NCBI GenBank assembly: GCA_951406725.2
Contig: OX597833.1
Span: 66,030,001-66,094,000, forward strand
Length of the DNA: 64,000 nucleotides
Source of the DNA: Octopus vulgaris
Taxonomy: Eukaryota
Direction: 5' to 3'
The translations under genes were made by a program, and so were the position numbers. The notes beneath the pieces are model-generated. The model did no database searches. It was not told where the DNA came from and saw only the letters and a list, made by a program, of their open reading frames with translations. Shown here in pieces: positions 2,660 through 62,946 of this stretch (position 1 is its first letter; every line of letters begins with the position of its first letter).

Positions 2660-3783
2660 CGCACAAACATCCACATGCATACATACATACATGCATACAT
2701 ACATGCATGCGTACATACACATGCATAGGCATGCATATATATATATATATATTATATAATACTTGAGATTCTCAACAAGTTCTGAATTCTCTCTTTTCAC
2801 CTTACACGCCAGATTTCAGTTAATTAAGTTATCTTCAAATATTTTTGTGAATTAATTTATATTAAAATATTTTCTAGATTCATGATGTTATGAATAAAAC
2901 TTTGTTCGATTTTTATCATGTTTAATTAAAATACTACTAAACACTAAATGAGTATTTGATTAAACATAATTATATATAATAAAATTAATTAATAGCAGTA
3001 TATTTTGTATCGTCTACCATTTGGTAGATATAAAAATACAATTTTTCATTTTCTAGCGCCGAACGTTAATTTAGATTTTGAACGCTAACAAGATTCGTTT
3101 AAGTGTTATTCTAGTCATTTATTCACAACAAATTCTATAAATTGAAATATAAAATTTTGATTTTAACTCTTTCATCTTTTGGCTGTTCAAGTTACTGGTC
3201 GGCGGCCATCATGGAGCACTGTTTTCCATTTGTTTTTTTTATCTTTTTAGCCGAACACATCACTCCCTTTAGTATTTTTGGTTTTGTTTTTAAAGTTTGG
3301 TATTTTTTCCATCAGTCCTTTTTGCCGAACCACTGAATTGCAAGAACGTAAACAAACCCACACCGGTTTCCAAAGCGGTTGTTGAGGACAAACACAATAA
3401 ACAAATACACAGAAATGTGTGTGTATGTATATAGATAGATATACATAGCCTAGACATACGGTTGCACCTTGGGATTACAAGAGCGCCACTGTGTCTCTTG
3501 TTCCCCAGGTACTTTGTGGCAATCTCCTGTTCCTGGAGTGCAAGCGCATAAACTTCAAAGTGTGGTGTGACGTAGTGGTGTTGTGTCCAAGAGAGATTGC
3601 GCTTCGTGTCTTCAAACTTCCGGCCATGGTCTTTTCTTTTTTTTTTTTTGTATGCTGAGTGCTTTCCATCCAGGTCTTCCCTGAGGTAAGAGAGCCCAGC
3701 TGTTTTGGGGCTGCATAGGACCTCATCAGGAAGAGAGTGTTTCTTGTTTATTGCATGTATGTATATATGCGTATATATATATA

Positions 3784-3996
3784 GTAAATCCAAACAAGAA
3801 AGCACAAAAAAAAACACAACAACGCGGGGACGTGGAACGAATATAGTATTATTGGATGCTCAGGGAAGAAAGAAAGAAGGAGGGTTTAACGCTTCGAGCG
3901 GAGTTCTTCGTCGGAAACATAGGAGAAGGAAAGATCCAGAGAAGGGAAGACAGAGGAAAAAAATCGCCAACGGTACACGCGCGGTCACATTTTGAA
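3784..3996 (-). mobile_element. P1 copy with mutated hammerhead
   Basis: Reverse complement of 50405-50618. GAAA is changed to GAAG and stem II has a mismatch. Confidence 0.7.
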
Positions 3997-3997
3997 T

Positions 3998-4077
<80 letters not shown>

Positions 4078-4100
4078 GTAGATAAGTAGATAGATAGATA

Positions 4101-5707
4101 TGTTTCTTTATTAGCCACACAGGGCTGCACACAGATAGAACAAATTACAAGGTAGAGCTTTTCTTTTGAAGGTTTAAGAAAAAAAAAAAAAAAAAGAAAA
4201 GAAAAGGAAGGGGGAGTTTCGATCAAAAGGGATCGTAAAAGGAGAGAAAGAGGACAAAAAAAAGGGGGTTTAAAAAAAAAGGGGGAGGAAAAAAAATTGA
4301 TCAATAGGGATCGTTATCACAGAAATGTCAATATGAAGTGTAAAGGGGAGGACAGGTGAGGTTTACCCGTGCAAAGAAAAGCCTACGGAAAAGACCACGG
4401 TAACCTCGGTCAATGATGTCACATTTTATATTTCTTTTTTTTTTTTTTGCAAATAAGCAACTCTCTGTTTTCGATTTCTGGGTTCATAGGACTATGCTCA
4501 AGGTGGCTTCGTCATTCATACGTGCCATTCTTGCTACATTCACCCATCTTTTTTAAAACATTCGCTAGACAAAACTTGCCTCTCTACTCTCACTTTCCTT
4601 TTCAAGTGGTACTTGAAGAAGTTGATGAGAGATTGACCAGAGAGGAAAGTGTTTGTCTCCAATCCTTTCAGACGCGTCCACCAGATACATTCTTTCGCCA
4701 TAGCCACAAGGATGATGAAAATAGCTCTTCCTTCCCGTTTGAAGGAAGGAGGCGTGACAATATTGACGATAGACTCAGCTGATAAACCGACTCGTCCCAC
4801 ACGTGACAGCAGTTGTTCGACATAAGCCCACAGGTCGGAAATTGTTGGACACTGAACGAGTGCGTGCAGAACGGTTTCGTCGCTCTGACCGCATCTCGGG
4901 CAGGTCGGCCCCGTGTTTCTCGAGCCGTGTCTGTAGAGCTTATCCCGAACGGGTAGCGCTTCTCGGTAGCACTGCCAGGCCAGGGATCTCTGGAAGTTGT
5001 CCATGGGCCCTGGCCCGAAAGTCGTCCTGAACAGGCGGGTCAGGTACTCCTCGTCGACGTCCAGGTTCGCCCCGAGCTCGTCGTCGTACCTCCCCTCCAC
5101 TAAACCCCTATAGAATGCTTTGGTTGTGTTGAAGTCACTTAAGGTCGACCCAGGACGGCAGAGTTGCTTGAGAGCAACGCGACACTCGCGGTGCCATTCG
5201 CCCTTCCTCGGCCTCTTTTTGATCCACGACTGCAGTTCGGTCATGGAGACGAGCTGCGGGAAAGCGTGCCTCACAAACGGCGACCACACCTGTTCACCGT
5301 CGTCTACATAGAGCCAGAGATGCCGCAGTCTCAGCGCGTGTCTGCGCATCATCAACCACGGCATGCCCAGCCCTCCTTTTAACGGGTGTTGACAGCAAAT
5401 GGATCGCCTGACCATCGGGACGCATCCTTTCCACAAGAAGCGAAAGAGGATGCGTTGTAGTTTGGTGATGGTAGGGTCGGGACAAGGTACGACGGTCAGG
5501 CGGTAGTAGATGACGGACGCGATGTACGTGTTCGCCACCTCCGCTCGACCTTTTAGGGACAGTTTCCTCTCGGCCCATTGCCGGGCGAGAGTGACCACCC
5601 TACTCGTTATCTCGTTCCAGTTCTTCTCCACTTGGAGGTCCGGACCAAACCAGACCCCGAGCAACTCAACCGGGCCGTCGGTCCAGCGTCCCACGACGGA
5701 GGCGCTG
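4101..5707 (-). mobile_element. 5'-truncated non-LTR retrotransposon (L1/Tx1 clade), 3' part of ORF2 plus 3' UTR, inserted in a (TAGA)n array
   Basis: GC-richer island containing ORF 4540..5694. The 3' UTR ends ...GCTAATAAAGAAACA, and (TAGA)n arrays abut both ends (about 3998-4100 and 5708-5910). Confidence 0.9.
4484..5707 (-). pseudogene. LINE ORF2 C-terminal fragment (RT thumb region and zf-RVT CCHC finger)
   Basis: Motifs LLGVWFG, W..RKLSLKGR, FRFLWKG, GGLGMP, LPVRDKL and CPRC...ETVLHALVQC are typical of L1/Tx1 ORF2. A probable frameshift lies in an A-run near 4550, and the alternative frame RWVNVARM...IVL* ends at 4484. Confidence 0.85.
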
Positions 5708-5830
<123 letters not shown>

Positions 5831-5831
5831 G

Positions 5832-5911
<80 letters not shown>

Positions 5912-6059
5912 CAGATGAATATGGTACTTAAGTTGAGGCACCAGAATTTAGTACGGTATTATCCATACAATTTCAAAGTAAGGTGATTAAAATCAAAATA
6001 AGCAACAAGGATATCCAGGGGATAAAACAAAGCTATTTTATTCCACACGGGTATAAATG

Positions 6060-6245
6060 TAGGAAAAATAGAAGTTGAATATGCACTGAGAATAGTTCAA
6101 ATATTTTTTTTATTAATATATTAAATGCTTTAACTGGATTTACAGTTTGAAAATCCGTATAAACTGTGAAACCGGTTAAAGCTTCGAATATATTAATAAA
6201 ATATTTTAAATGTTCTCAGTGCATTTTTAACTTCTATTTTTCCTA
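6060..6245. repeat. Imperfect fold-back, arms of about 85-90 bp
   Basis: TAGGAAAAATAGAAGTT...ACAGTTT versus AAACTGT...AACTTCTATTTTTCCTA. Confidence 0.88.
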
Positions 6246-6423: not shown

Positions 6424-6900
6424 CAGGTGTTGGACAAAATAATGGAAACATCTAACATCATAGCATCATAATTTTGAAATATCAATAAAACCGTCAAAAG
6501 CTTGTTTATTTTTATGTTTTTTTTATTTATTATTAGTGTTGCTTAATATGTTTTGCTAAAATAGCTGTTTTTCTTTCAGATATCATCAGAAAAAGGTAAT
6601 TAAAATTCATTAAAATGACAGATCTATCGGACTTTCAAAGAGGTCAAATTGTTGGTGCTCGTATGGCAGGTGCTAGCGTAACGAAAACCGCCGAAATGTT
6701 TGGTGTATCAAGAAGTACTGTCTCGAAAGTAATGGCAGCCTTTGAGAAAGAGGGAAAAACCTCTTCGTCGAAACAAAACTCCGGAAGAAAACCAAAACTT
6801 TCAGATAGGGACCGGTGGACTCTTAAGCGAATTGTTAGAAACGATCACAAAAGTACAACTCCCAAAATCACTGCAGAGCTTAATGACCACCTCGAGAACT
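6424..6900 (+). mobile_element. Tc1-like DNA transposon, left end and transposase N-terminus (truncated)
   Basis: Starts TA|CAGGTGTTGGACAAAATAATGGAAACA. ORF 6615.. MTDLSDFQRGQIVGAR...GVSRSTVSKV...SGRKPKLSDRD is a Tc1 paired-like HTH with a GRPR-like motif. The catalytic domain is absent and a SINE follows. Confidence 0.85.
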
Positions 6901-6935
6901 CAGAATATTTGCTGTAGCCCATCTTTTATACCTTG

Positions 6936-7121: not shown

Positions 7122-7372
7122 GACGACGACGACGACGACGACGACGACTACTACTACTACTATCAAGGGGCGAGCTAGCAGAATCGTTAGAATGCCGGGC
7201 AAAATGCTTTGCGGTATTTTATCTGTCTTTACGTTCTTCGTTCATATTCCTCTGAGGTCGTCTTTGCCTTTCTTCCTTTCGAGGACGATAAAACGAGTAC
7301 GAGTTGAGTACTGGAAGTTGATGTAATCAACTCCCACCCCAAAATTGCTGACCTTGTGCCAAAATTTGAAAC
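6936..7372 (+). mobile_element. Two SINE-A copies (tail type 2) separated by (ACT/ACG)n
   Basis: Core motifs at about 6960-7030 and 7255-7330, with CCTTGTGCCAAAATTTGAA-type tail. Confidence 0.75.
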
Positions 7373-7407
7373 TAATGAAAATGTGTATGTGTATCTATAT
7401 GCATATT

Positions 7408-9260: not shown

Positions 9261-10162
9261 GATTAAGAGAGAAAAATACGAAGAGAGAATGAAAAAACAC
9301 GGAGAGAGGGAAAATATATATATGACGGGCTTTCACACAGTTTCCATCTACCATCTACCATATTTACTCACGGGGCATTGACTGGCACTGGGCTATAGCA
9401 GAAAGTGCTTTCTCGAGGTGCCACGCAATGGGACTGAACTCGAAACCATGTGATTGCAACGCGAGTGTGTTAACTACACGGACATTCCTGCAAATATTTC
9501 TAACTATTATAAGATGTTTGAGTCTCGTTTCAACAAGCATCTAATGTTTGGAATTAAATTGGTTGCTAAGAGCAGCAGAAAATTCTTCAAATTTTAATCA
9601 GTCAGTTGCGATGTCGCTCTGTATTTTTATCAGTTTCGTGAATAAAAATGTTTGTTCACATTTCTTCATCATTCCGAAAATGACAGATGTAACTCTGGGC
9701 GAATTTCATTAATTTTGAAATATGTTTACAGGGTACTGACAGCATTCGGATTTTGAGAAAAGCCCAACAAATTCATTTTCAATAATGAATTTGTTTTCCA
9801 GCCAATAAGCTGTTTGCATGTTACTAAGTATTTTCATAATTCTTTGTTCACTAAATGAAAATGGGGTTTCACGCAAGTATGAAGATAAAGATGAAGCAGT
9901 CATCATTTTTATCAGAATCACGAACACGACATTGAATTCATTGAATTTGCAATCATCTAATATTTTGTAAAAGTCACTTAATAACCGTCAGCAAATTCAC
10001 TCTGGTTCAGTTTTTCTTTTTCAGTGTAGAACCTGATTCGAAATTTCGTTTTCTGAGATTCAGCGCAGGCGTGGCTGTGTGATGTGATAAGAAACTTGTT
10101 TTCAAGCCACATGGTTCTGAGTTCAGTCCCATTGCGGGTCACCTTGGGTATGTGTCTTCTAC

Positions 10163-10351
10163 CTATTTCTTTTACTACCCACAAGGGGGGGGGGCTAAAC
10201 ACAGAGAGGACAAACAAGGACAGACAAACGGATTAAGTCGATTACATCGACCCCAGTGCGTAACTGGTACTTATTTAATCGACCCCGAAAGAATGAAAGG
10301 CAAAGTCGACTTCGGCAGAATTTCAACTCAGAACGTAACAGCAGACGAAAT
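10163..10351 (-). mobile_element. SINE-A, 5'-truncated, adjoining a SINE-B head (10063-10160)
   Basis: Core and tail type 1. The 5' end lies at ATTTCGTCTGC, within a few nt of the trimer junction point. Confidence 0.85.
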
Positions 10352-10387
10352 GTGTGTATATACATACATACATATATATATATATAT

Positions 10388-10552
10388 GACGGGCTTCTTT
10401 CAGGTTCCGTCTAGTAAATCCAATCGCAAGGTTTTAGTCGACCCAAGGCCATAGTAAAAGAGATTTGCTCCAGGTGCCACACACAGTAGGACGGAATCCG
10501 AAACCACTTGGTTGAGAAGCAACCTTCTTACCACACAGCCACGCCTGCGCCT
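10388..10552 (-). mobile_element. SINE-B 5' part (tRNA-derived)
   Basis: Reverse complement begins GGCGCAGGCGTGGCTGTGTGGTAAG. Related copies at 9323-9492 (-), 10063-10160 (+), 7497-7575 (-) and 38192-38240 (+). Confidence 0.8.
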
Positions 10553-10899
10553 ATTTTGTAGAATTTTCTTCATCTTGTCATATGTGTCTGATAAGGTTTT
10601 TTTGTTTTGTTTCTTTTGTTTTTCGGTATCTTTTGTTATTGTTTATCGTTTTTTTTTTCCTTCTTTGAAACGACTCAAGACCGACAAATTCTTCAAAGAC
10701 GCAAAATCTGTCATCAGTTCCTCTTATAAAAAAAAAAAATATTTGACCAAACCGCATCAGAAATGGCGGTAGATTAGTTCAAAGATAAAGAAAAGTAGAA
10801 ACATGGAGGATATCTTGTCAGTTGATCAAATATGACACAGCCAGAATAATTTTTTCGTTGTCTCTTGTAGATGTATGCATTGACAACACATTCCATTTA

Positions 10900-16822: not shown

Positions 16823-16860
16823 TATTTCTTTATTACCCACAAGGGGCTAAACACAGAGGG
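16823..16860 (-). mobile_element. Tail-only SINE-A insertion
   Basis: Reverse complement of CCCTCTGTGTTTAGCCCCTTGTGGGTAATAAAGAAATA, flanked by 11-bp TSD TTTAATATACT (16812-16822 and 16863-16873). Confidence 0.8.
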
Positions 16861-17218
16861 TGTTTAATATACTGTTTCTACGTAAACCATATCTAAATTG
16901 TTTTTAAACATTTTTAAGACAGCAAAAAGGTGATTTCGAGGGCGGTTTGACGGCTGTTATGTCTAGAATGCCGAACGACCCTCTAGAAGGCTCCTCATTG
17001 CCTCGTTTTCAATCAGTTTATTAGCCAATGTGAAGCGTTAATATATTGTCAAAAAAGAGGCAACGAGAAAATCAATGTAAAGAGCCGAGGGATTCCATTG
17101 TCATTATGTTCAAGGAATGATTAATGTAAAAGGTATTCTAATTTGTATCGCAGGGGTAATAGGAATGGTAATGGCACTTACATACACACATATACACATA
17201 CATACACATATACATATA

Positions 17219-20915: not shown

Positions 20916-20960
<45 letters not shown>

Positions 20961-21081
20961 TGCGGAGCTCTTCGTCAGAAACATAGGAAAAGGAGAGATC
21001 CAAAGAAGGGAAGACGGAGGAAAAAATCGCCAACGGTACACACACGGTCACATTTTGAATGACCGGAAGGGAATGGGTGAA

Positions 21082-21130
<49 letters not shown>

Positions 21131-21233
21131 TTCAGCAAAAATTTAGATTCAGATGAATATGGTACTTAAGTTGAGGTACCAGAATTCGGTACGGCATTAT
21201 CCATACAATTTCAAAATAAGGTGAGTAGAATGA

Positions 21234-21335
21234 AATAAGCAACAAGGATATCTAGAGCTAATGCAGTACGATCGTTTATTGGAGTTGCGTGAAACGATCG
21301 TACTGTATTACCTCTGGATATCCTTGTTGCTTATT
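21234..21335. repeat. Hairpin with 44-bp arms and 14-nt loop
   Basis: AATAAGCAACAAGGATATC...GTACGATCGTTT versus AAACGATCGTAC...GATATCCTTGTTGCTTATT. Confidence 0.92.
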
Positions 21336-22629: not shown

Positions 22630-22822
22630 TATTGGTTTCAAATTTTGTCACGAGGGCAGTAATTTTGGGGCGGAGGATAAGTCTATTACATCGACCCTAG
22701 TGCTTGACTGGTACTTATTTCATCGATCCCCAAAGAATGAAAAACCTTGGTGGAGCACAAAAACGGACTAAATGCCGCCGAGCATTTTGACCGGCGCTCT
22801 AACGACTCTGCCAGCTCGCCAT
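22630..22822 (-). mobile_element. SINE-A (tail type 2), internally deleted
   Basis: Head CTGCCAGCTCGCC and core TACATCGACCC..GTGC...ACTGGTACTTA. Confidence 0.75.
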
Positions 22823-23138
22823 CTTACATACTAAATTAATATTGAATGATTGAAAGTCTGGCGTGAAATACGTCTGATTGATTCTGTTGTTTACTTGTTT
22901 AATTTGTTTTAATTTGTTTTAATTTATTTTATTTCATTATTGCAATTAACACATTCATTAATGGTAATTAATGTATTTGTTTAGAGTGTCAAAGTGCTAC
23001 GTGTTCGAAGTTTATATAGACATACACAAATACATATACGCACACATTATGCACATACATATCTACACATATATATTGTGCGTAGATATGTGTGTGTATA
23101 CCTCGATACATGTATATATATGCATGTGTGTGCGTAGG

Positions 23139-23294: not shown

Positions 23295-24200
<906 letters not shown>

Positions 24201-25216: not shown

Positions 25217-25445
25217 AGGTGACGAGCTGGCAGAAGCGTTAGCACGCCGGGTGAAATGCCTTGTGGTATTTCGCCCGCCGCTACGTTCTGCGTTCAAATT
25301 CCGCCGAGGTCGAATTTGCCTTTCATCCTTTCGGGGTCGATTAAATAAGTACCAGTTACGCACTGGGGTCGATGTAATTGACTTAATCCCTTTTATCTGT
25401 CCTTGTTTGTCCCCTCTATGTTTAGCCCCTTGCGAGCAATAAATA
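25217..25445 (+). mobile_element. SINE-A monomer (tail type 1)
   Basis: Near-identical to 62716-62946. Confidence 0.88.
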
Positions 25446-25618
25446 ATTTTATATATGTTGAATGGCTATGGAGAACCAATAGAATAAAATGGGAACCAAA
25501 GAACTCCATGGGTAAAAAATGGTTAAGACACACTGACTGGAGTGGATTAAACCTCAAGACTTCTGAGGCAAACTTTATTAGGAATCAAATACCAGAAGAG
25601 ATTTAGATATATTTAGTA

Positions 25619-33551: not shown

Positions 33552-34640
33552 GTATCAGATCATCCCAGAAGTTCTGTTCGATTTTACCTTTGTCAAAATT
33601 GAATGAAATTTAATAGTATTTTAAAATGTCTGATGGAATTCAAATTTATTTTTATGCATTTGTGTACATATAAACTAATTAAATATTATTTTACAGAATA
33701 ATAGAATTAAAATTTCTTTGATTAAATCCCTTTCTAACATGAAAGTATCCAAAGAGCATTTAAGGCACATAATGCTTTATGAGTTCAAAAAAGGAAACTC
33801 TGCAGCCGAAGTGACTCGAAACATACACTCAGCTTATGGGAAAGAATGCTTGAATGAAAGAACTTGCAGAAGATGGTTTGCAAAATTCAGAAGTGGAGAT
33901 TTCAGCCTTGAAGACGAAGATCGAACAGGACGTCCAGTTGAGTTTGATGATAAGCTCCTTGAGGCATTACTTAAAGTAAGTCCTGCATTATCAGTTGAAG
34001 AATTGGCAATAAAGCTTAGTTCTAACCATACAACTGTTCATCGTCATCTTCATCAACTTGGAAAGGTTCCAAAACTTGGAAAATGGGTGCCTCATGAATT
34101 GTTCGAAAGTAACCTCAAATCTGAGTTGATATCTGCTCTTCTCTCCATTCTCACAAACTCATTTCACCCTTTTTGGGTAGACTTGTGACTGGTGATGAAA
34201 AATGGATCTTCTATCGAAAGGTTAAATGTCGTAAACAGTGGCTTGGTGAAAGGGAAAAAGCGCAACCACAATCAAGAAGGTTCTTCTCTCTATCTGGTGG
34301 GATTGCAAAGGAGTAATTCACTTTGAATTGTTACCACTTATGCAACAATCAATGCTCAAGTCCACTGTCAGCAATTAGAGCGTTTGAACGAAGCTTTGAA
34401 GAAAAAAAGACCCTCTTTTGTGAAACGAAAAGGAGTGGTGTTTCATCAGGACAATGCGCGACCCCAAACTGCAAAGATCATATCAGAGAAGATCGAAGAG
34501 CTTGGTTGAAAAAAATTTCTCATCCACCTTATTCTCCCGACCTTGCTCCTTCAGACAACCATTTGTTTCGTAGTTTACAGAATCATTTGGGGGACATAAC
34601 TTTCGCAAGCCGGGAGGAGGTCCAGACTGACAATTCAGCT
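33552..34640 (+). mobile_element. Mariner (Mos1-like, DD34D) element, degenerate and lacking its right end
   Basis: Transposase remnants described in the next feature. The 5' boundary is approximate. Confidence 0.85.
33739..34640 (+). pseudogene. Mariner transposase pseudogene (frameshifts and deletions)
   Basis: MKVSKEHLRHIMLYEF, RRWFAKFRSGDFSLED..RTGRP, WVPHEL, VTGDEKW (about 34184), FHQDNA (34441) and HPPYSPDLAPSD.HLF occur in different frames. Confidence 0.92.
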
Positions 34641-36258: not shown

Positions 36259-36570
36259 CTAAGATGGCGAACTGGCAGGATCGTTAGCAAAGCATTTTTT
36301 TCCGGCGTCCTAAAGATTCTGCCAGCTCGCCGCCATCTTTAGTTCCTCATATTCTTTTCTACTCTAGGCACAAGGCCCGAAATTTTGAAGGGAGGGGCTA
36401 GTCGATTAGATCGACCCCAGTACGTAACTGGTACTTATTTCATCGTTCCCCAGGAAGGCTGAAAGACAAAGTCGACCTCGACGGAATTTGAACTCAGAAC
36501 GTAAAGACGGACGAAATGCAGCTAAGCATTTTGTCCGCCGTCCTAACGATTCTGACAGCTCGCCGCCATC
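36259..36570 (-). mobile_element. SINE-A (tail type 2, about 36350-36568) preceded by inverted head fragments
   Basis: Full minus copy. 36259-36341 contains two head fragments in opposite orientation. Confidence 0.8.
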
Positions 36571-39029: not shown

Positions 39030-39657
39030 AGGCGGCGAGCTGGCAGAATCGTTAGCACGCCGGGCGAAGTGCGTAGCTGTATTTCGTCTGCCGTTACGTT
39101 CTGAGTTTAAATTCTGCCGAGGTCGACTTTGCCTTTCATCCTTTCGAGGTCGATAAATTAAGTACCAGTTACGCACTGGGGTCGATAAATTAAGTACCAC
39201 TTGCGCACTGAGGTCGATGTAATCGGCTTAATCCATTTGTCTGTCCTTGTTTGTCCCCTCTGTGTTTAGCCCCTTGTGGGCAGTAAAGAAATAGGTATTT
39301 CGTCTGCCGCTACGTTCTGAGTTCAAATTCCGCCGAGGTCGACTTTGCCTTTCATCCTTTCGGGGTCGATTAAATAAGTACCAGTTACGCACTGGGGTCG
39401 ATATAATCGACTTAATCCGTTTGTCTGTCATTGTTTGTCCTCTCTGTGTTTAGCCCCTTGTGTAGTAAAGAAATAGGTATTTCGTCTGCTGCTACGTTCT
39501 GATTTCAAATTCCGCCGAGGTCGAATTTGCCTTTCATCCTTTCAGGGTCGATTAAATAAGTACCAGTTACGCACTGGGGTCGATAAATTATCGACATAAT
39601 ATGTTTGTCCTTGTTTGTCCCCTCTGTGTGTAGCCCCTTGTGGACAGTAAAGAAATA
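39030..39657 (+). mobile_element. SINE-A trimer (one full unit and two 5'-truncated units)
   Basis: tRNA-like head (TGGCAGAATCG and GAGTTCAAATTC boxes), Meta-like core GTCGACTTTGCCTTTCATCCTTTCGGGGTCGA, and 16-bp TSD AAATAAAGACCACGTT (39012-39027 and 39658-39673). Confidence 0.9.
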
Positions 39658-40232
39658 AAATAAAGACCACGTTATTTAGCCTACTTATTTTCAAGGATAT
39701 AAGATGTTTCTGTGAAAGATTTGGTTGTTAAGCCTTGACAGGTTAGTCACGGTAGGATTGTTTCTGACTCTGTATCTGTCCGATCAGTGAGTTCTGTGAA
39801 ATCATGTCCTACCATTTAAGAAAAGGACACATTTAGCAATATAGACCTAGATACACAAGGCAGGTGGCATAGTCACAACTGGAACAACTTTAGTTCCTGG
39901 AACTACTCAGCCAGAACTGACCTAGGGTTAAACAGCAACAATACAGAAGCCTATATGCGGTCGCCCATCATGCTAGAAATTGAAATGAGTCTCCCTCAAA
40001 TAACATCCCATCTTAAAAATAGACACGTTGCATAAGGGAATCCTTGTTTCCTAGCACATACGGAAAGACAGAAAGGTCATGGTTGGACCGCTTTTCATTA
40101 TATATCTATAGGTCTATTTGATTAGAGAATTCTCAGAAACAATCTTTTGCCCTTTACAAAGAGGAGGTATTTAACAATATTGCCCTAGATGTAAAAAATA
40201 AAGGCAGGATCGCCACAAGTGGAACATCTTTG

Positions 40233-40340
40233 GCATTTTGGGCAAGTGGCTTCTGCTATAGCCCCGGGCCGACCAATGCCATGTGAGTGGATTTGGTAGA
40301 CGGAAACTGAAAGAAGCCTGTCGTATATATGTATATATAT

Positions 40341-40811: not shown

Positions 40812-41267
40812 ATTGGCTCCAAATTTTGGCACAAGGCCAGCAATTTCGGAGAAGGGGAAAGTCTATTGTATTGAGACACACCTCCCTGTGCACAACAGAT
40901 ACTTAGTAGATCGGCCTTGAAAAGATGAAAGGCAAAGTAGACCCCAGCGGAATTTGAACTCTGAACTTAAAGACGGACGAAATGTCGCAAAGCACTTCGA
41001 CCGGCGTGGTAATGATTCTGTCATCTCACCGCTTTACATCAAACTGATTATCGTTTTCAAATTTTAGCACAAGGCCTGTACTTTCGGGGTGGGGGGGAGG
41101 CAAGTCAATTACATCGACCCCAGTGCTCAACTGGTGCTTATTTTATAGACCCTAAGAGAAAGAAACGTAAAGTCGAACTTGGCGGAATTTGAACTCAGAA
41201 CGTAAAGCCGAACGAAATGTCGCTAAGCACTTTGACCGGCGTGCTAATAATCCTGTCAGTTCGCCGC
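40812..41267 (-). mobile_element. Two adjacent SINE-A copies (tail type 2)
   Basis: Two units of about 220 bp, each with the AATTTGAACTC B-box complement and CACAAGGCC tail. Confidence 0.8.
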
Positions 41268-42153
41268 TCTTTATATCAAAGTGAATATTAACTTCGTTAA
41301 TCTCATCTTGTTCTTACATCTCCCACCATCCTTCCTTCTTTCCTTCCTTCCTGCAGTCTTGGAGAACTTGAGATGTATATGGCCACAGCATCCTCATTCA
41401 CAATTTCACTAACAAATTGTAATCTCTCTTCCGGATGGTTTGTTACCTTCATCAGGATATCGAGAAGTTTCGTTCAGACGAAGTTGAACTTATTCAATAG
41501 AAGTTGCCTTTCTAAAGATGGCGCACCAAATTAATTCATCGCTCGGCTTTTGAAAAACGTCGCTCAGAAAAGTCCTTTGTAGATATTTATACTTAAATAT
41601 AAATCTATATGGAACTAACTTTTAAGAACTCTTGTAGAATTCTCACAGAACTGATTACATCGGCTTTCAAATGTATTATCCATGTATAATTAATCATTAG
41701 AAGCATTCTGTGGCTCTTTTAGTTAAATCTGGCAGATAATTTAAAATACAATTAATTCTTTACCAATTACACCAACAATGGAGTATAACAAATTCATACC
41801 TTCATACATACATACATACGTGTGTATATATGTGTGTGTATGCGTATTTATAAATGTATGCGTTCGTTTCCAACGGTCTTTCTTTTCTCTTAGCAAAGCT
41901 GCTGCGGCCGTCGTTGAATGCTTTGAGAAAGCCAATTCTTTTGTAAGCCACGCATCGTTACATCATTGAAAAGTCGCCCCTCTTTCTCCATAAAGATCGG
42001 TAATCGATTAATAAATTCTTTGACACACAATTACTTGAGTGAAGTTTTTAAACACCGCTCGATATGTACATACACAATAGATTAATAAAGACATTGTCAG
42101 CTTTTCATATTAATTTGTCTTTATCTATGAATCAATCTACATACAGACATACA

Positions 42154-47877: not shown

Positions 47878-48562
47878 AATTCTTTATTGCCCACAAGAGG
47901 CAATAAAAAGGGACAAGCAAGGACAGACAAAGGGACTTATTTAATAGACCCCGAAAGAATGAAAAGAATGAACTCAGAACGTAGTGACAAGGAAATACCA
48001 CTAAGCATTTCGTCCAGCGTGTTAACGATTCTGCCAGCTCACCGCCTGAAATTAACAACTAATTATTTTAGGACTTATTAAGGCAGTGAGGTGGCAGAGT
48101 ATCATTACCGCAAAGCAGCGAGCTGGCAGAAACGTTAGCCTGCCGGGCGAAATGCTTAGTAGTATTTCGTCTGCCGCTACGTTCTGAGTTCAAATTCCAC
48201 CGAGGTCGACTTTGCCTTTCGTGCTTTCGTAGGTCGATAAATTAAGTACCAGTTGCGTACTTGGATCGATCATATCGACTGGCCCCCTCCCCTAAAATTT
48301 CGGACCTTGTGCCTAGAGTAAAAAGGAAGAGAATATTATTACGGCACCGGGCAGAATGCGTAGCGACATTTCGTCTGTCCTTACGTTCTGAGTTCAAATT
48401 CTGCCGAAGTCGACTTTACCACCGTTCATCATTTCGGGTTCGATAAAACAAATACCAGTTGAGCACAGGGGAGTAGTGCGGGGGGGGGGGGTCAATGTAA
48501 TCGGCTTAACCCCCACCTCCTTCAAAATTAATGGCCTTGAGCCAAAATTCGAAACCAATATT
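47878..48562. mobile_element. Cluster of three SINE-A copies (47878-48046 minus; 48117-48322 and 48345-48562 plus)
   Basis: Head and core motifs recognisable in each copy. Both tail types are present. Confidence 0.78.
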
Positions 48563-48786: not shown

Positions 48787-49387
48787 TATTTCTTTACTAC
48801 CCACAAGGGGCTAAACACAGAGGGTACAAACAAGGACAGACAAACGGATTAAGTCGATTACATCGACCCCAGTGCGTAACTGCTACTTATTTAATCGATC
48901 CCGAAAGGATGAAAGGCAAAGTCGACCTCGGCGGAATTTGAACTCAAAACGTAAAGGCAGACGAAATACCTATTTCTTTACTACCCACAAGGGGCTTAAC
49001 ACAGAAAGGACAAACAAGGACAGACAAATGGATTAAGTCGATTACATCGACCCCAGTGCGTAACTGGTACTTATTTAATCGATCCCGAAAGGATGAAAGG
49101 CTAAGTCGACCTCGGCGGAATTTGAACTCAGAACGTAACGGCAGACGAAATACCTATTTCGTTACTACCCACAAGGGGCTAAACACAGAGGGGACAAACA
49201 AGGACAGACAAACGAATAAAGTCGATTACATCGATCCCAGTGCGTAACTGGTACTTAATTTATCGACCCCGAACGGATGAAAGGCAAAGTCGACCTCGGC
49301 GGAATTTGAACTCAGAACGTAACGGCAGACGAAATACCGCTAAGCATTTCGCCCGGTGTGCTAACGTTTCTGCCAGCTCTCCGCCTT
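48787..49387 (-). mobile_element. SINE-A trimer (one full unit and two 5'-truncated units)
   Basis: Same unit as 39030-39657, with 15-bp TSD TGAATTCTTCTTACC (48772-48786 and 49388-49402). Confidence 0.9.
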
Positions 49388-50227: not shown

Positions 50228-50404
50228 ATAAGAAAAACTGTCCGACGAACGGGAACGTGACACTCTGAGTAACAGCTTTTGTTATATTTCTGCTGCTTTT
50301 AAATAAAGCATATTACTCTACCTCTGGTATTTGAGTACTCGTTTCCCCACCTTCTTTCACATTTATGTGCTTACTCCGGTATATATATATATATCACTTA
50401 ACTT

Positions 50405-50618
50405 TCAAAATGTGACCTCGTGTGTACCGTTGGCGATTTTTTTCCTCTGTCTTCCCTTCTCTGGATCTTTCCTTCTCCTATGTTTCCGACGAAGAGCTCC
50501 GCTCGAAACGTTAAACCCTCTTTCTGTCCTTCTTTCCTGAGCGTCCAATAATACTATATTTGTTCCACGTCCTCGCGTTGTTGTGTTTTATTTTGTGCTT
50601 TCTTGTTTGGATTAACTT
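50405..50618 (+). mobile_element. Hammerhead-bearing short element, family P1 (Penelope-like terminal repeat)
   Basis: Repeat of about 210 bp also present at 3784-3996, 20962-21060 and 23413-23600 (all minus). Its 3' end runs into (TA)n and it contains a hammerhead fold. Confidence 0.7.
50482..50516 (+). ncRNA. Minimal type I hammerhead ribozyme (U4C core variant)
   Basis: GTTT-CCGACGA-A-GAGC-TCC-GCTC-GAA-AC-GT-T-AAAC: stem I GTTT/AAAC, stem II GAGC/GCTC, palindromic stem III ACGT. Confidence 0.65.
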
Positions 50619-51719
50619 TATATATATATATATATATTTATTTATTTATTTACATGCATACATATATTTGTGTGTGCCTGCGCCTTTGTGTTTGTGTTTG
50701 TGTTTGATTTACATAGCCTGACAACGATTGTTGGTTTGTTTGCGTCCCCGTTTCCCAGCGACTCGGCGGAAAGCGATCGACGGATAAATAGCAGACTTTT
50801 AAAGAAAGATAAATACCAGAACGATCTAACCTTCGAAAGCGGTTACTCTCCCAACATGGCTGCAATTCAACGAGCGAAACAAACAAAACAAGGATAAAAT
50901 AGTATCAAATATCGTTTTATATTAACAGCGTTTCCTTTTTTTTTTTTCTTTTTTTCCTGTAAAATTGAAAATATTATTGTTTTTCACAAACAGAGAAACA
51001 GCTATATATCAATTTTATGAAATTTATTAAAGCATTTCCAAATTTATTAAATTGATTCCCCTATTTCTTAATTTAATGCCAGTACTATGCGACCCATGAA
51101 ATTGTCTTAAATATTACCTTGTAAGCATCCAGCTAAGATATAAAATGCTTAAGGGTTGGCTAACAACTTATTAACAAGAATTTATCACAAATAATAGGAT
51201 AGGTTGGGGTCTTTTTGTTGTTGTTTGTTGTTTCTTTCTCTCGGTTTTTTTTTTTTGGTTTTTTTCTCTAAAACTTTTCTATTTAATACATTTAATTTAA
51301 TATTTTACAAAATGCTTTCCGCATTATATTTCTAATTAAATGTTGATTAATATTCAAAAATTGAATTTAATGAAATTAAAAGCGATAAAGGTTGAGCGTT
51401 TATAACATTACTGCGAGATGTTTCAATGGAAGACAGACATTGTTACGTTCCGTTAATAATAATTCGATCGAAGAATGAAATATGCGCCATAATTATAGAT
51501 TCTCCTTGTCGATGTTATTGTCATCGTCGTTGTTGCTGCTGTTGTTGTTGTTGTTGGTTGTTGTTGTTGTTGGGGAGGTGGGGTGGCTGTTCTTGTGTTT
51601 TGGCTACTGTATGACATTTTCAATGTTTTTCGGCTCACATTCTATAACACCCTCTCCTTCAGTATCTTTATATGAGTATATGCATGCGCACGCGCGTGTG
51701 TGTGTATACATACATACAT

Positions 51720-62210: not shown

Positions 62211-62715
62211 TCCTGGTAGGATTCTGAACCCAATTCTGGATTCTCATTCCTAAGGTTTTTTTTAATATATTTTTAGCACTATAAATCGTTGTAGTGACAA
62301 CAAACAAGATGAGGACATATATCCGTCCAATGTAAATAATCTACAGAATTCCTCATCTCTAAAATATAGGACATCTTTAACACGTACTGATTTAGAATAA
62401 CAGTAGAGGCTATAGTTGTTTCTAAGCATGTGTTTTACAGGGAATATTAGCTACTGACGATCATAAAGATAGCAGAAATCAAGATTTAGCAATTTCACCG
62501 CAGCTGTTGGACACTTATCTTCTGCTATCGATTTGCTTCTGTGCTTTTTAGCACAAATAATGTTATACTTCAAGTTATATAATCCTTATGAAACAAAAAG
62601 GAGGACTAATTGTGGAGGTAAAAGAGTTCTGACTCGCCTTAACCAAAGTTACCACTTGTGACACTAAACTTCATATGGGGTACAGTGATATATCTAACAC
62701 GTTATATATATCTAA

Positions 62716-62946
62716 GACGGCGAGCTGGCAGAATCGTTAGCACACCGGGCGAAATGCGTAGCCTTATTTCGCCTGCCGTTACGTTCTAAGTTCAAATTCC
62801 GTCGAGGTCGACTTTGCCTTTCATCCTTTCGGGGTCGATAAATTGAGTACCAGTTACGCACTGGGGTCGATGTAATCGAATTAATCCGTTTGTCTGTCCT
62901 TGTTTGTCCCCTCTATGTTTAGCCCCCGGTGGGCAATAAAGAAATA
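62716..62946 (+). mobile_element. SINE-A full monomer (tail type 1)
   Basis: Complete head, core and tail, with 17-bp TSD GATATATCTAACACGTT (62687-62703 and 62947-62963). Confidence 0.9.

What the first reader, a model, noticed from the sequence alone, without database searches (positions are those of the whole stretch)
4103..4144. Dominant SINE shares its 3' tail with the Tx1/L1-type LINE: candidate SINE-LINE partnership
Seen: the LINE 3' end (reverse complement) TTTGTTCTATCTGTGTGCAGCCCTGTGTGGCTAATAAAGAAA aligns without gaps to the SINE-A tail TTTGTCCCCTCTGTGTTTAGCCCCTTGTGGGCAATAAAGAAA at about 32-33 of 42 positions by my count, and both elements end there. SINE-A copies have 11-17 bp TSDs. 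Established: SINEs borrow the 3' end of their partner LINE (well known for CR1, L2 and RTE), whereas mammalian L1 recognises poly(A). Inference: a Tx1-type LINE with sequence-specific tail recognition mobilises this Meta-like SINE.
Basis: partly seen in the sequence, partly recalled or inferred. Interest (0 to 1): 0.8.

Follow-up and report, generated by a model that had tools for sequence, protein, structure and literature searches.

The report
Octopus SINE shares L1-type LINE tail
In an octopus-like genome, a common short jumping element ends in nearly the same 42 bases as a high-copy L1-type retrotransposon family, so that family or a close sister likely copies the short element by recognising a predicted small RNA hairpin rather than a poly(A) tail as mammalian L1 does.

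Summary
Observation confirmed. The last 42 nt of a 5'-truncated LINE (4103-5709, minus strand) match seven SINE-A tails at 30-34/42 without gaps, above all shuffles, and both elements end there. Public contigs from three species labels show that this tail is the family's normal end. Many LINE copies carry letters closer to the SINE than this copy does (about 34-35/42). The LINE is of the L1 superfamily; Tx1 is likely but was not tested by a tree. SINE-A target-site duplications (11-17 bp, 5 copies) fit L1-type enzymes. Three tail types on the same SINE body keep a 4-bp stem with a CUUGU loop and swapped C-G/G-C pairs; the LINE has a similar hairpin with one more loop base. Against: the LINE sits in (GATA)n microsatellites, while 0 of 7 SINE-A insertions do, so a sister family may be the real driver. 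The direction of tail transfer is not shown. 'Meta-like' is not supported. I found no animal SINE with an L1/Tx1-derived tail in the papers searched; Repbase could not be checked. Verdict: a likely new variant of a known SINE-LINE pairing.

The parts
4103..4144 (-). 42-nt 3' terminal tail of the LINE, shared with SINE-A; holds a predicted 4-bp hairpin (4113-4126) followed by AATAAA (4107-4112); no poly(A)
   Evidence: depth and variants in public contigs
4103..4483 (-). LINE 3' UTR, about 380 nt
   Evidence: stop codon of the corrected frame at 4484-4486 (sequence)
4484..5709 (-). C-terminal part of LINE ORF2 (after the RT core, with zf-RVT), 5'-truncated at 5709; a one-base frameshift at the A-run near 4548 breaks the last about 20 codons in this copy
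   Evidence: tblastn 71% to P0002; length variant at 4548
4001..4100 (.). (GATA)n/(TATC)n tract at the LINE 3' junction
5709..5911 (.). (GATA)n/(TATC)n tract at the LINE 5' junction
   Evidence: other truncated copies also abut GATA repeats (tables 5c, 7)
62717..62946 (+). Full-length SINE-A monomer (tRNA-like head with A and B boxes, body, tail 62903-62944), 17-bp TSD
25217..25447 (+). Full-length SINE-A monomer, more diverged, 13-bp TSD
39030..39657 (+). Trimeric SINE-A (one full unit, two head-truncated units), one outer 16-bp TSD
48787..49387 (-). Trimeric SINE-A, same unit junction, one outer 15-bp TSD
16823..16861 (-). Tail-only insertion with SINE-A letters (about 39 nt), 11-bp TSD
10160..10351 (-). 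5'-truncated SINE-A with an expanded C run in the tail, inside another repeat
47879..48047 (-). Diverged, internally deleted SINE-A, no TSD found
36352..36568 (-). SINE-B1: same head and body, different tail with a G-C swapped stem around the same CUUGU loop (another copy at 48114-48330, +)
40815..41269 (-). Two SINE-B2 copies: same head and body, third tail type, same loop motif (others near 7166 +, 22630 -, 48512 +, 50028 -)
20960..21255 (+). Paralogous empty site: both flanks of the LINE locus (about 91% identical) joined by about 90 bp with (TA)n and no LINE or GATA tract

Best explanation
SINE-A shares its last 42 bases with an L1-superfamily (likely Tx1-type) LINE family, and it likely took this tail from that lineage and is likely copied by the ORF2 protein of this family or a close sister, which would recognise a predicted short hairpin with a CU(G)UGU loop just before AATAAA. 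Shown: shared end, tail at family level, L1-type protein, 11-17 bp TSDs, hairpin-compatible swaps between SINE tail types. Inferred from known stringent pairs (L2, CR1, RTE, plant L1): Pol III makes the SINE RNA, ORF2p binds the 3' stem-loop in trans, nicks the DNA and reverse-transcribes from the exact 3' end (target-primed), giving the TSD and 5'-truncated copies such as the tail-only insertion at 16823-16861. Also inferred: SINE-B1 and B2 tails come from other members of the same LINE lineage by tail swapping. The sampled LINE favours (GATA)n sites and SINE-A does not, so I put a sister family with looser targeting at about even odds with this exact family.
For: Tail identity above all shuffles. 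(4 of 20 holder runs laid, 85% likeness): mean depth over the tail bin 4078-4132 was 2.63M, 2.12M and 0.46M in three DNA-type runs of three species labels, against 1.06-2.44M, 1.07-2.25M and 0.24-0.73M over ORF bins 4518-5672. Depth at 4137/4139, away from the microsatellite, was about 2.0M, 2.1M and 0.34M. The SINE letters at 4137 and 4139 make up 40-52% and 44-62% of depth in all 4 runs. The third SINE letter (4136) is not among the 40 rows shown, which points to LINE copies rather than SINE contigs as the source. Loose ends at 4135 (48 and 44 contigs) read nine SINE-identical letters and then resemble the LINE 3' UTR (16 of 21 letters by eye in one run) rather than the SINE body (7 of 21). 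The RT of a 71%-identical relative is closest to human L1 ORF2p (E about 1e-50) against R2 (1e-16 to 1e-24). TSDs of 11-17 bp, 3 of 5 at 15 or more, fit the L1 range (7-18) better than RTE (7-15, mostly up to 13) as quoted in PMC6007223. Stem covariation across 18 tails: 84.7% of cells paired, 16 cells changed on both sides, 0 of 500 shuffles as high, all slid registers lower. SINE-A units are 91.7-97.8% identical to their majority and most LINE contigs are 90% or more alike to this copy, so ages roughly overlap.
Against: 0 of 7 SINE-A insertions lie within 850 bp of a GATA tract, while the LINE here and other truncated copies abut GATA repeats; SINEU in crocodilians does share the target preference of its Tx1 partner (PMC4494074). 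The hairpin is not stable beyond chance on its own (z -0.3 to -0.9 for nine 42-mers), and only 3 of 8 SINE-A 42-mers had it in the minimum-energy fold. The LINE loop is one base longer, so the LINE row fits only part of the SINE register. The covariation rests on three related tail types, and I chose the structure after seeing them. Even the closest LINE variant differs from SINE-A at about 7 of 42 places, most of them in and around the hairpin. No genome was available, so LINEs of other clades (RTE, CR1, R4-Dong are abundant in octopus, PMC13282606) were not screened. Contig depth is not copy number, and 230 variant rows and 3109 loose ends were not shown.
Confidence: 0.68

Rival explanations
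1. Reverse direction: a master LINE copy picked up a SINE-A tail as its new 3' end (read-through to the SINE's AATAAA, or a template switch). SINE-A is moved by another LINE, and the shared tail says nothing about recognition by this protein.
For: SINE insertions are dense (about 20 head/body or tail loci in 64 kb). Homology starts abruptly at the 42-mer. The hairpin motif is present in all three SINE tail types. Target sites differ.
Against: TSD lengths fit L1-type enzymes. The three SINE tails replace each other at one point after the shared body, as expected for LINE-derived modules swapped onto a SINE (tail swapping described in PMC4824008). The LINE carries only the last 42 of about 62 tail-specific bases. 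LINE-to-SINE transfer is the usual direction in the published table of pairs (PMC3747384).
Confidence: 0.17
2. Relaxed mobilisation: the tail is homologous but only serves as a polyadenylation or end signal. The LINE protein needs no specific sequence, and SINE-A is moved through an A-rich end or by several LINEs.
For: AATAAA sits in both tails. The hairpin is weak. SINE-B tails match the LINE at only 15-20/42 yet spread in the same genome.
Against: No poly(A) follows either element. Many SINE-A copies have AGTAAA. The match holds without the A-rich end. Stem pairs are swapped in a compensating way around a constant loop.
Confidence: 0.1
3. The 42-mer is the target, not the tail: the LINE inserts into SINE-A just before its tail.
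For: Tx1 families often target other repeats (PMC4494074); earlier scan notes raised this reading in other genomes.
Against: The 5' junction is (TATC)n followed by a non-SINE repeat, and an empty paralogue joins both flanks with no SINE. Other truncated copies abut GATA repeats, not SINE body. The tail keeps LINE-specific letters at family depth.
Confidence: 0.03
4. Chance or low-complexity match.
For: The sequence is short, with TG-rich and A-rich parts.
Against: 0 of 20,000 dinucleotide shuffles reach 32/42 or 23/32. The match is end-to-end in the same orientation. LINE variants move towards the SINE letters.
Confidence: 0.02

Closest known systems
L1-clade SINE/LINE pairs: maize ZmSINE2 and ZmSINE3 with LINE1-1_ZM; Chlamydomonas SINEX-3_CR with L1-1_CR (Ohshima 2012, PMC3472496, part 1 of 3 read; table in PMC3747384)
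   Same: tRNA-type SINE sharing about 45-80 terminal bases and a predicted hairpin with an L1-clade LINE
   Different: Those are plant and algal and were the only 3 such SINEs among more than 800 L1-clade families in that survey. This case is an animal (mollusc), likely the Tx1 branch, with no poly(A) or poly(T) end and with a microsatellite-associated LINE.
Crocodilian SINEU with Tx1-Mar (Kojima 2015, PMC4494074, passages read)
   Same: SINE likely mobilised by Tx1-type LINEs
   Different: SINEU has snRNA heads; the link rests on shared target and heads, and no LINE sharing the SINEU-1 3' end was found. Here the link is a shared tail, and the target is not shared.
Microsatellite-targeting Tx1 families Kibi (TC)n, Koshi (TTC)n and crocodilian (TTCC)n/(TTTC)n families (as described in PMC4494074)
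   Same: L1-superfamily LINE with both junctions in a simple repeat
   Different: Repeat unit here is (GATA)n; a search for Tx1 with GATA and microsatellite found 0 papers.
Stringent L2/CR1/Nimb pairs, including mollusc CORE, V, Meta and Deu SINEs (PMC4176376 passages; PMC11481361 section 13)
   Same: 35-61 bp shared ends at 72-95% identity; loop-specific recognition of a 3' stem-loop shown for zebrafish L2; tail swapping on one SINE body
   Different: Partners there are CR1, CR1-Zenon, L2 and Nimb; Tx1 is not mentioned in the main text of PMC11481361 (0 hits).
Octopus tRNA-derived SINEs OK, OR1, OR2 (Ohshima and Okada 1994; seen only as a citation; the name OK is recalled)
   Same: tRNA-derived octopus SINE; SINE-A may well be one of them
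   Different: Could not be compared, no sequence was available. SINE-A lacks the CCTTGGG motif of CORE SINEs such as OR1/OR2.

Membership tests
Stringent SINE-LINE pair | Shared 3'-terminal sequence, same orientation, both elements ending there | tested here: met
Stringent SINE-LINE pair | Tail is a family trait of the LINE, not of one copy | tested here: met
   depth at tail equals ORF depth in 3 DNA-type runs; SINE-like variants joined to LINE UTR; contigs only, no full-length copy seen
Stringent SINE-LINE pair | Conserved 3' stem-loop with compensatory changes | tested here: inconclusive
   covariation between SINE tail types, but folding energy not beyond shuffles and LINE loop one base longer
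Stringent SINE-LINE pair | Shared insertion signature | tested here: inconclusive
   TSD length fits L1 type; GATA preference not shared, 0 of 7
Stringent SINE-LINE pair | Concurrent activity | tested here: inconclusive
   SINE-A units 91.7-97.8% to majority (9 units); LINE contigs mostly 90% or more alike; no real age profile
Stringent SINE-LINE pair | Tail required for mobilisation by the LINE protein | not testable with these tools
   needs a cell assay
L1 superfamily of LINEs | APE endonuclease + RT + C-terminal zinc knuckle; RT nearest to L1 | tested here: met
   zf-RVT in the window copy; EN, RT and zf-RVT in relatives; human L1 ORF2p best among solved structures, which hold only L1 and R2 as LINE references
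Tx1 clade | Position in an RT tree with named Tx1 and L1 references | not testable with these tools
   no named reference sequences could be fetched (searches gave no clade names)
Tx1 clade | Target preference for repeats or microsatellites | tested here: met
   both junctions in (GATA)n here; further truncated copies abut GATA; few junctions were shown, share not measured
MetaSINE | 66-bp Meta domain directly after the tRNA head | tested here: not met
   two motifs from BivaMeta/BivaMD alignments have no hit in any SINE body at 2-3 mismatches; full Meta consensus (a figure) not available
CORE-SINE | Conserved CCTTGGG core motif | tested here: not met
   no hit at 0-1 mismatch in SINE-A; the best hit (10142) lies in a different repeat; partial 3' CORE likeness not tested
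tRNA-derived SINE | [quoted passage not shown] | tested here: met
   A-box-like and B-box motifs read directly from the sequence, TSDs and copies; ARAGORN and Rfam found no tRNA match

The most novel reading that the evidence does not exclude
The octopus SINE boom was driven by Tx1-type LINEs that read a CUUGU-loop hairpin: one SINE body swapped among three tails, each taken from a different Tx1 family. This would be the first animal case of stringent tail recognition in the L1 superfamily, supporting the idea that poly(A) recognition by mammalian L1 is a derived loss. It would also show a microsatellite-targeting enzyme placing its SINE passenger outside its own target, so that target choice depends on the RNA end.
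Probability: 0.35. Interest if true: 0.8.

Novelty: new variant of a known kind. Interest (0 to 1): 0.6.

Why it matters
SINEs make up about 11.6% of the Octopus vulgaris assembly (PMC13282606), and none of the papers I found names the LINE that moved them. A named partner makes this testable. Whether the ancestral L1-clade protein was 'stringent' or 'relaxed' is an open question resting on three plant and algal SINEs (PMC3472496). An animal Tx1-type pair with a defined 14-nt hairpin gives a direct assay, and a comparison with solved human L1 ORF2p structures. The mismatch in targets between LINE and SINE offers a natural test of how much the endonuclease and how much the RNA end decide the insertion site.

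Tried and rejected
No own genome was held, so there was no genome-wide tail search. Relatives were sought in prokaryotic, viral and metagenome collections with the protein, an alignment and a degenerate tail pattern: nothing confirmed. No RNA holder was listed; one run guessed to be RNA was laid and says nothing on expression. Extension of homology upstream of the 42-mer was rejected. No second LINE fragment was found in the window (tblastn; Pfam on 56 of 69 ORFs of 75 aa or more, leaving out 13 that overlap the LINE or SINEs, found only Tc1/mariner pieces). Clade names were sought in the ESM atlas, cluster members and representatives without success. ARAGORN and Rfam gave no tRNA hit. 'Tail as target site' was rejected. 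Ten paper searches found no report of this pair or of an animal SINE with a Tx1/L1-derived tail. Supplements of SINEBase (PMC3531059) and PMC4494074 were unreadable; 21 of 33 supplement files of PMC10294476 and 1 file of PMC4758252 were not searched; Albertin 2015 was not held; Repbase, Dfam and the Zenodo library of PMC13282606 are out of reach. Any of these may already note the pair. Own-scan look-ups by sequence and place were empty.

Full report
Setting. The window is repeat-rich eukaryotic DNA. A predicted Octopus bimaculoides protein carries an 83%-identical piece of the LINE protein, and Argonauta hians encodes relatives at 62-64%, so it is most likely from an octopus. No whole genome was held.

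Observation. The 42-mer at 4103-4144 (minus) is as quoted. Ten SINE-A tails match it without gaps at 26-34/42, seven at 30 or more, against a maximum of 28 for 300 shuffled tails scanned over the whole window. Against the majority of 8 tails it scores 32/42, and 23/32 without the A-rich end; 20,000 dinucleotide shuffles reach at most 27 and 22. Upstream of the 42-mer there is no significant likeness. Both elements end at the same place.

The LINE. 4103-5709 is the 3' 1.6 kb of a LINE: 389 codons of ORF2 with a zf-RVT domain, a one-base frameshift near 4548, a stop at 4484-4486 in the corrected frame and a 380-nt UTR without poly(A). Longer relatives have endonuclease, RT and zf-RVT. The RT of the 71%-identical relative P0002 is closest to human L1 ORF2p (E about 1e-50; R2 1e-16 to 1e-24). 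Tx1 is likely: L1-Tx1 is the only L1-type group in the table of recently active O. vulgaris LINEs, with 13 families (PMC13282606, parts 1-2 of 3 read), and microsatellite targeting is typical of Tx1 (PMC4494074, passages). No tree with named references could be built.

Is the tail a family trait? Twenty of 24 listed runs, from 10 studies and 4 species labels, hold 78-95% of the LINE's sampled words. I laid four of them on 4078-5724 at 85% likeness. Depth over the tail bin was 2.63M, 2.12M and 0.46M in the three DNA-type runs, against 1.06-2.44M, 1.07-2.25M and 0.24-0.73M over ORF bins 4518-5672. That bin includes 25 bases of microsatellite, but depth at 4137 and 4139 was also about 2.0M, 2.1M and 0.34M. 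At these two places the SINE letter makes up 40-52% and 44-62% of depth in all four runs. The neighbouring SINE letter at 4136 is not among the 40 rows shown, so these are most simply LINE copies (34/42 to the SINE majority). A further 48 and 44 contigs break off at 4135, continue with nine letters identical to the SINE tail start and then resemble the LINE UTR (16 of 21 letters by eye in run X5, 7 of 21 to the SINE body; consensus agreement only 0.59-0.67). Such copies would match at about 35/42. Depth is not copy number, and 230 variant rows and 3109 loose ends were not shown.

Targets. Both junctions of the window copy are (TATC)n. Joints from 4241, 4249 and 4813 to the 5' microsatellite, and a loose end at 4824, show other truncated copies abutting GATA repeats. 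The locus lies inside another repeat whose paralogue at 20960-21255 joins both flanks with a (TA)n spacer and no LINE, GATA tract or SINE. This removes the reading that the 42-mer is a target, but leaves open whether the GATA tract was there before the LINE. None of 7 SINE-A insertions is within 850 bp of a GATA tract. This is the main result against direct mobilisation by this exact family.

The SINE. SINE-A has a tRNA-like head with A- and B-box motifs (read from the sequence; ARAGORN and Rfam found nothing), a body and the tail. TSDs are 17, 16, 15, 13 and 11 bp in 5 of 6 insertions examined. PMC6007223 (passages) quotes 7-18 bp for L1-clade and 7-15 bp for RTE-clade elements, with RTE-type SINE TSDs mostly up to 13 bp and starting with T; all five here start with a purine. 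Two Meta-domain motifs taken from the MetaSINE supplement (PMC4824008, sections 9-10 and supplement parts 1 and 3 read) and the CORE motif CCTTGGG (PMC5786205, passages) are absent from SINE-A, so its superfamily stays open.

Hairpin. The same head and body carry three tails (A, B1, B2). B tails match the LINE at only 15-20/42, yet they align without gaps around a CUUGU loop. A 4-bp stem is kept in 84.7% of cells over 18 tails; two C-G pairs of tail A are G-C in many B tails; 16 cells change on both sides; 0 of 500 shuffles and no slid register reach this. The rows are related and I chose the structure after seeing them, so this is a lead. The LINE folds the same kind of stem with a six-base loop, but folding energies are within shuffle range (z -0.3 to -0.9). 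In zebrafish L2, ORF2p reads the stem generally and the loop specifically (PMC4176376, passages), which is the model I apply.

Mechanism. Shown: shared end, family-level tail, L1-type protein, TSDs, a tail-only insertion with its own TSD (16823-16861). Inferred: the tail came from the LINE lineage, ORF2p binds the hairpin in trans and primes reverse transcription at the exact end. Confidence 0.68, split about evenly between this family and a sister with looser targeting. Rivals: the LINE captured a SINE tail (0.17), relaxed recognition (0.10), tail as target (0.03), chance (0.02).

Known and new. Tail sharing is a known kind of link. In the L1 clade the 2012-2013 survey found only three such SINEs, all in plants or algae (PMC3472496; PMC3747384 passages and table). 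The Tx1-SINE link in crocodilians rests on targets, not tails. Bivalve SINE partners are CR1, CR1-Zenon, L2 and Nimb (PMC11481361). Ten searches found no report of this pair. Other papers seen only as passages: PMC4758252, PMC8967140, PMC3531059, PMC10294476, PMC5804259, PMC9223172. Repbase, Dfam, several supplements and subscription papers could not be seen and may already hold it. Verdict: new variant of a known kind, interest 0.6.

Noticed in passing
window 39030-39657 (+) and 48787-49387 (-): Two independent trimeric SINE-A insertions, each with a single outer TSD; the second and third units start at the same place inside the tRNA-like head. Points to a multimeric source element or repeated template jumps.
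   Followed up: partly
window 36352-36568, 48114-48330, 55672, 40815-41269, 7166-7376, 22630-22825, 48512, 50028: Two further tail types (B1, B2) on the same SINE head and body; B copies often lie head-to-tail in pairs. Their partner LINEs are unknown.
   Followed up: partly
window 4001-4100 and 5709-5911: LINE associated with (GATA)n at both ends, also in other copies; may be an undescribed GATA-targeting Tx1 family, or the LINE may build these tracts, since the empty paralogue has (TA)n instead.
   Followed up: partly
window 3755-4000, 20960-21060, 23386-23602, 50404-50637 and 5912-6018, 21150-21255: Host repeat around the LINE, several copies at 85-93% identity, each beside (TA)n; Penelope-like by recall only.
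   Followed up: no
window 6060-6245: 186-bp imperfect palindrome (79% self-match on the opposite strand), MITE-like.
   Followed up: no
window 6600-6914 (+) and 33679-34185 (+): Tc1/mariner transposase N-terminal fragments (HTH domains; Mos1-type HTH_48).
   Followed up: no
window 10063-10162, 10385-10560, 9320-9490, 40231-40325: Another SINE-like family with a near match to the CORE motif at 10142; a SINE-A copy is nested in one of them.
   Followed up: no
protein P0012/P0179: A 65%-identical member of this LINE lineage is filed at NCBI under a Herbaspirillum MAG on a 1.8-kb contig, most likely host contamination; two O. bimaculoides gene models (P0007, P0023) include pieces of this LINE.
   Followed up: no
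window 62687-62716: About 13 extra bases repeating the start of the target lie between the 17-bp TSD and the SINE head, as expected from a template jump or slippage at the 5' junction.
   Followed up: no
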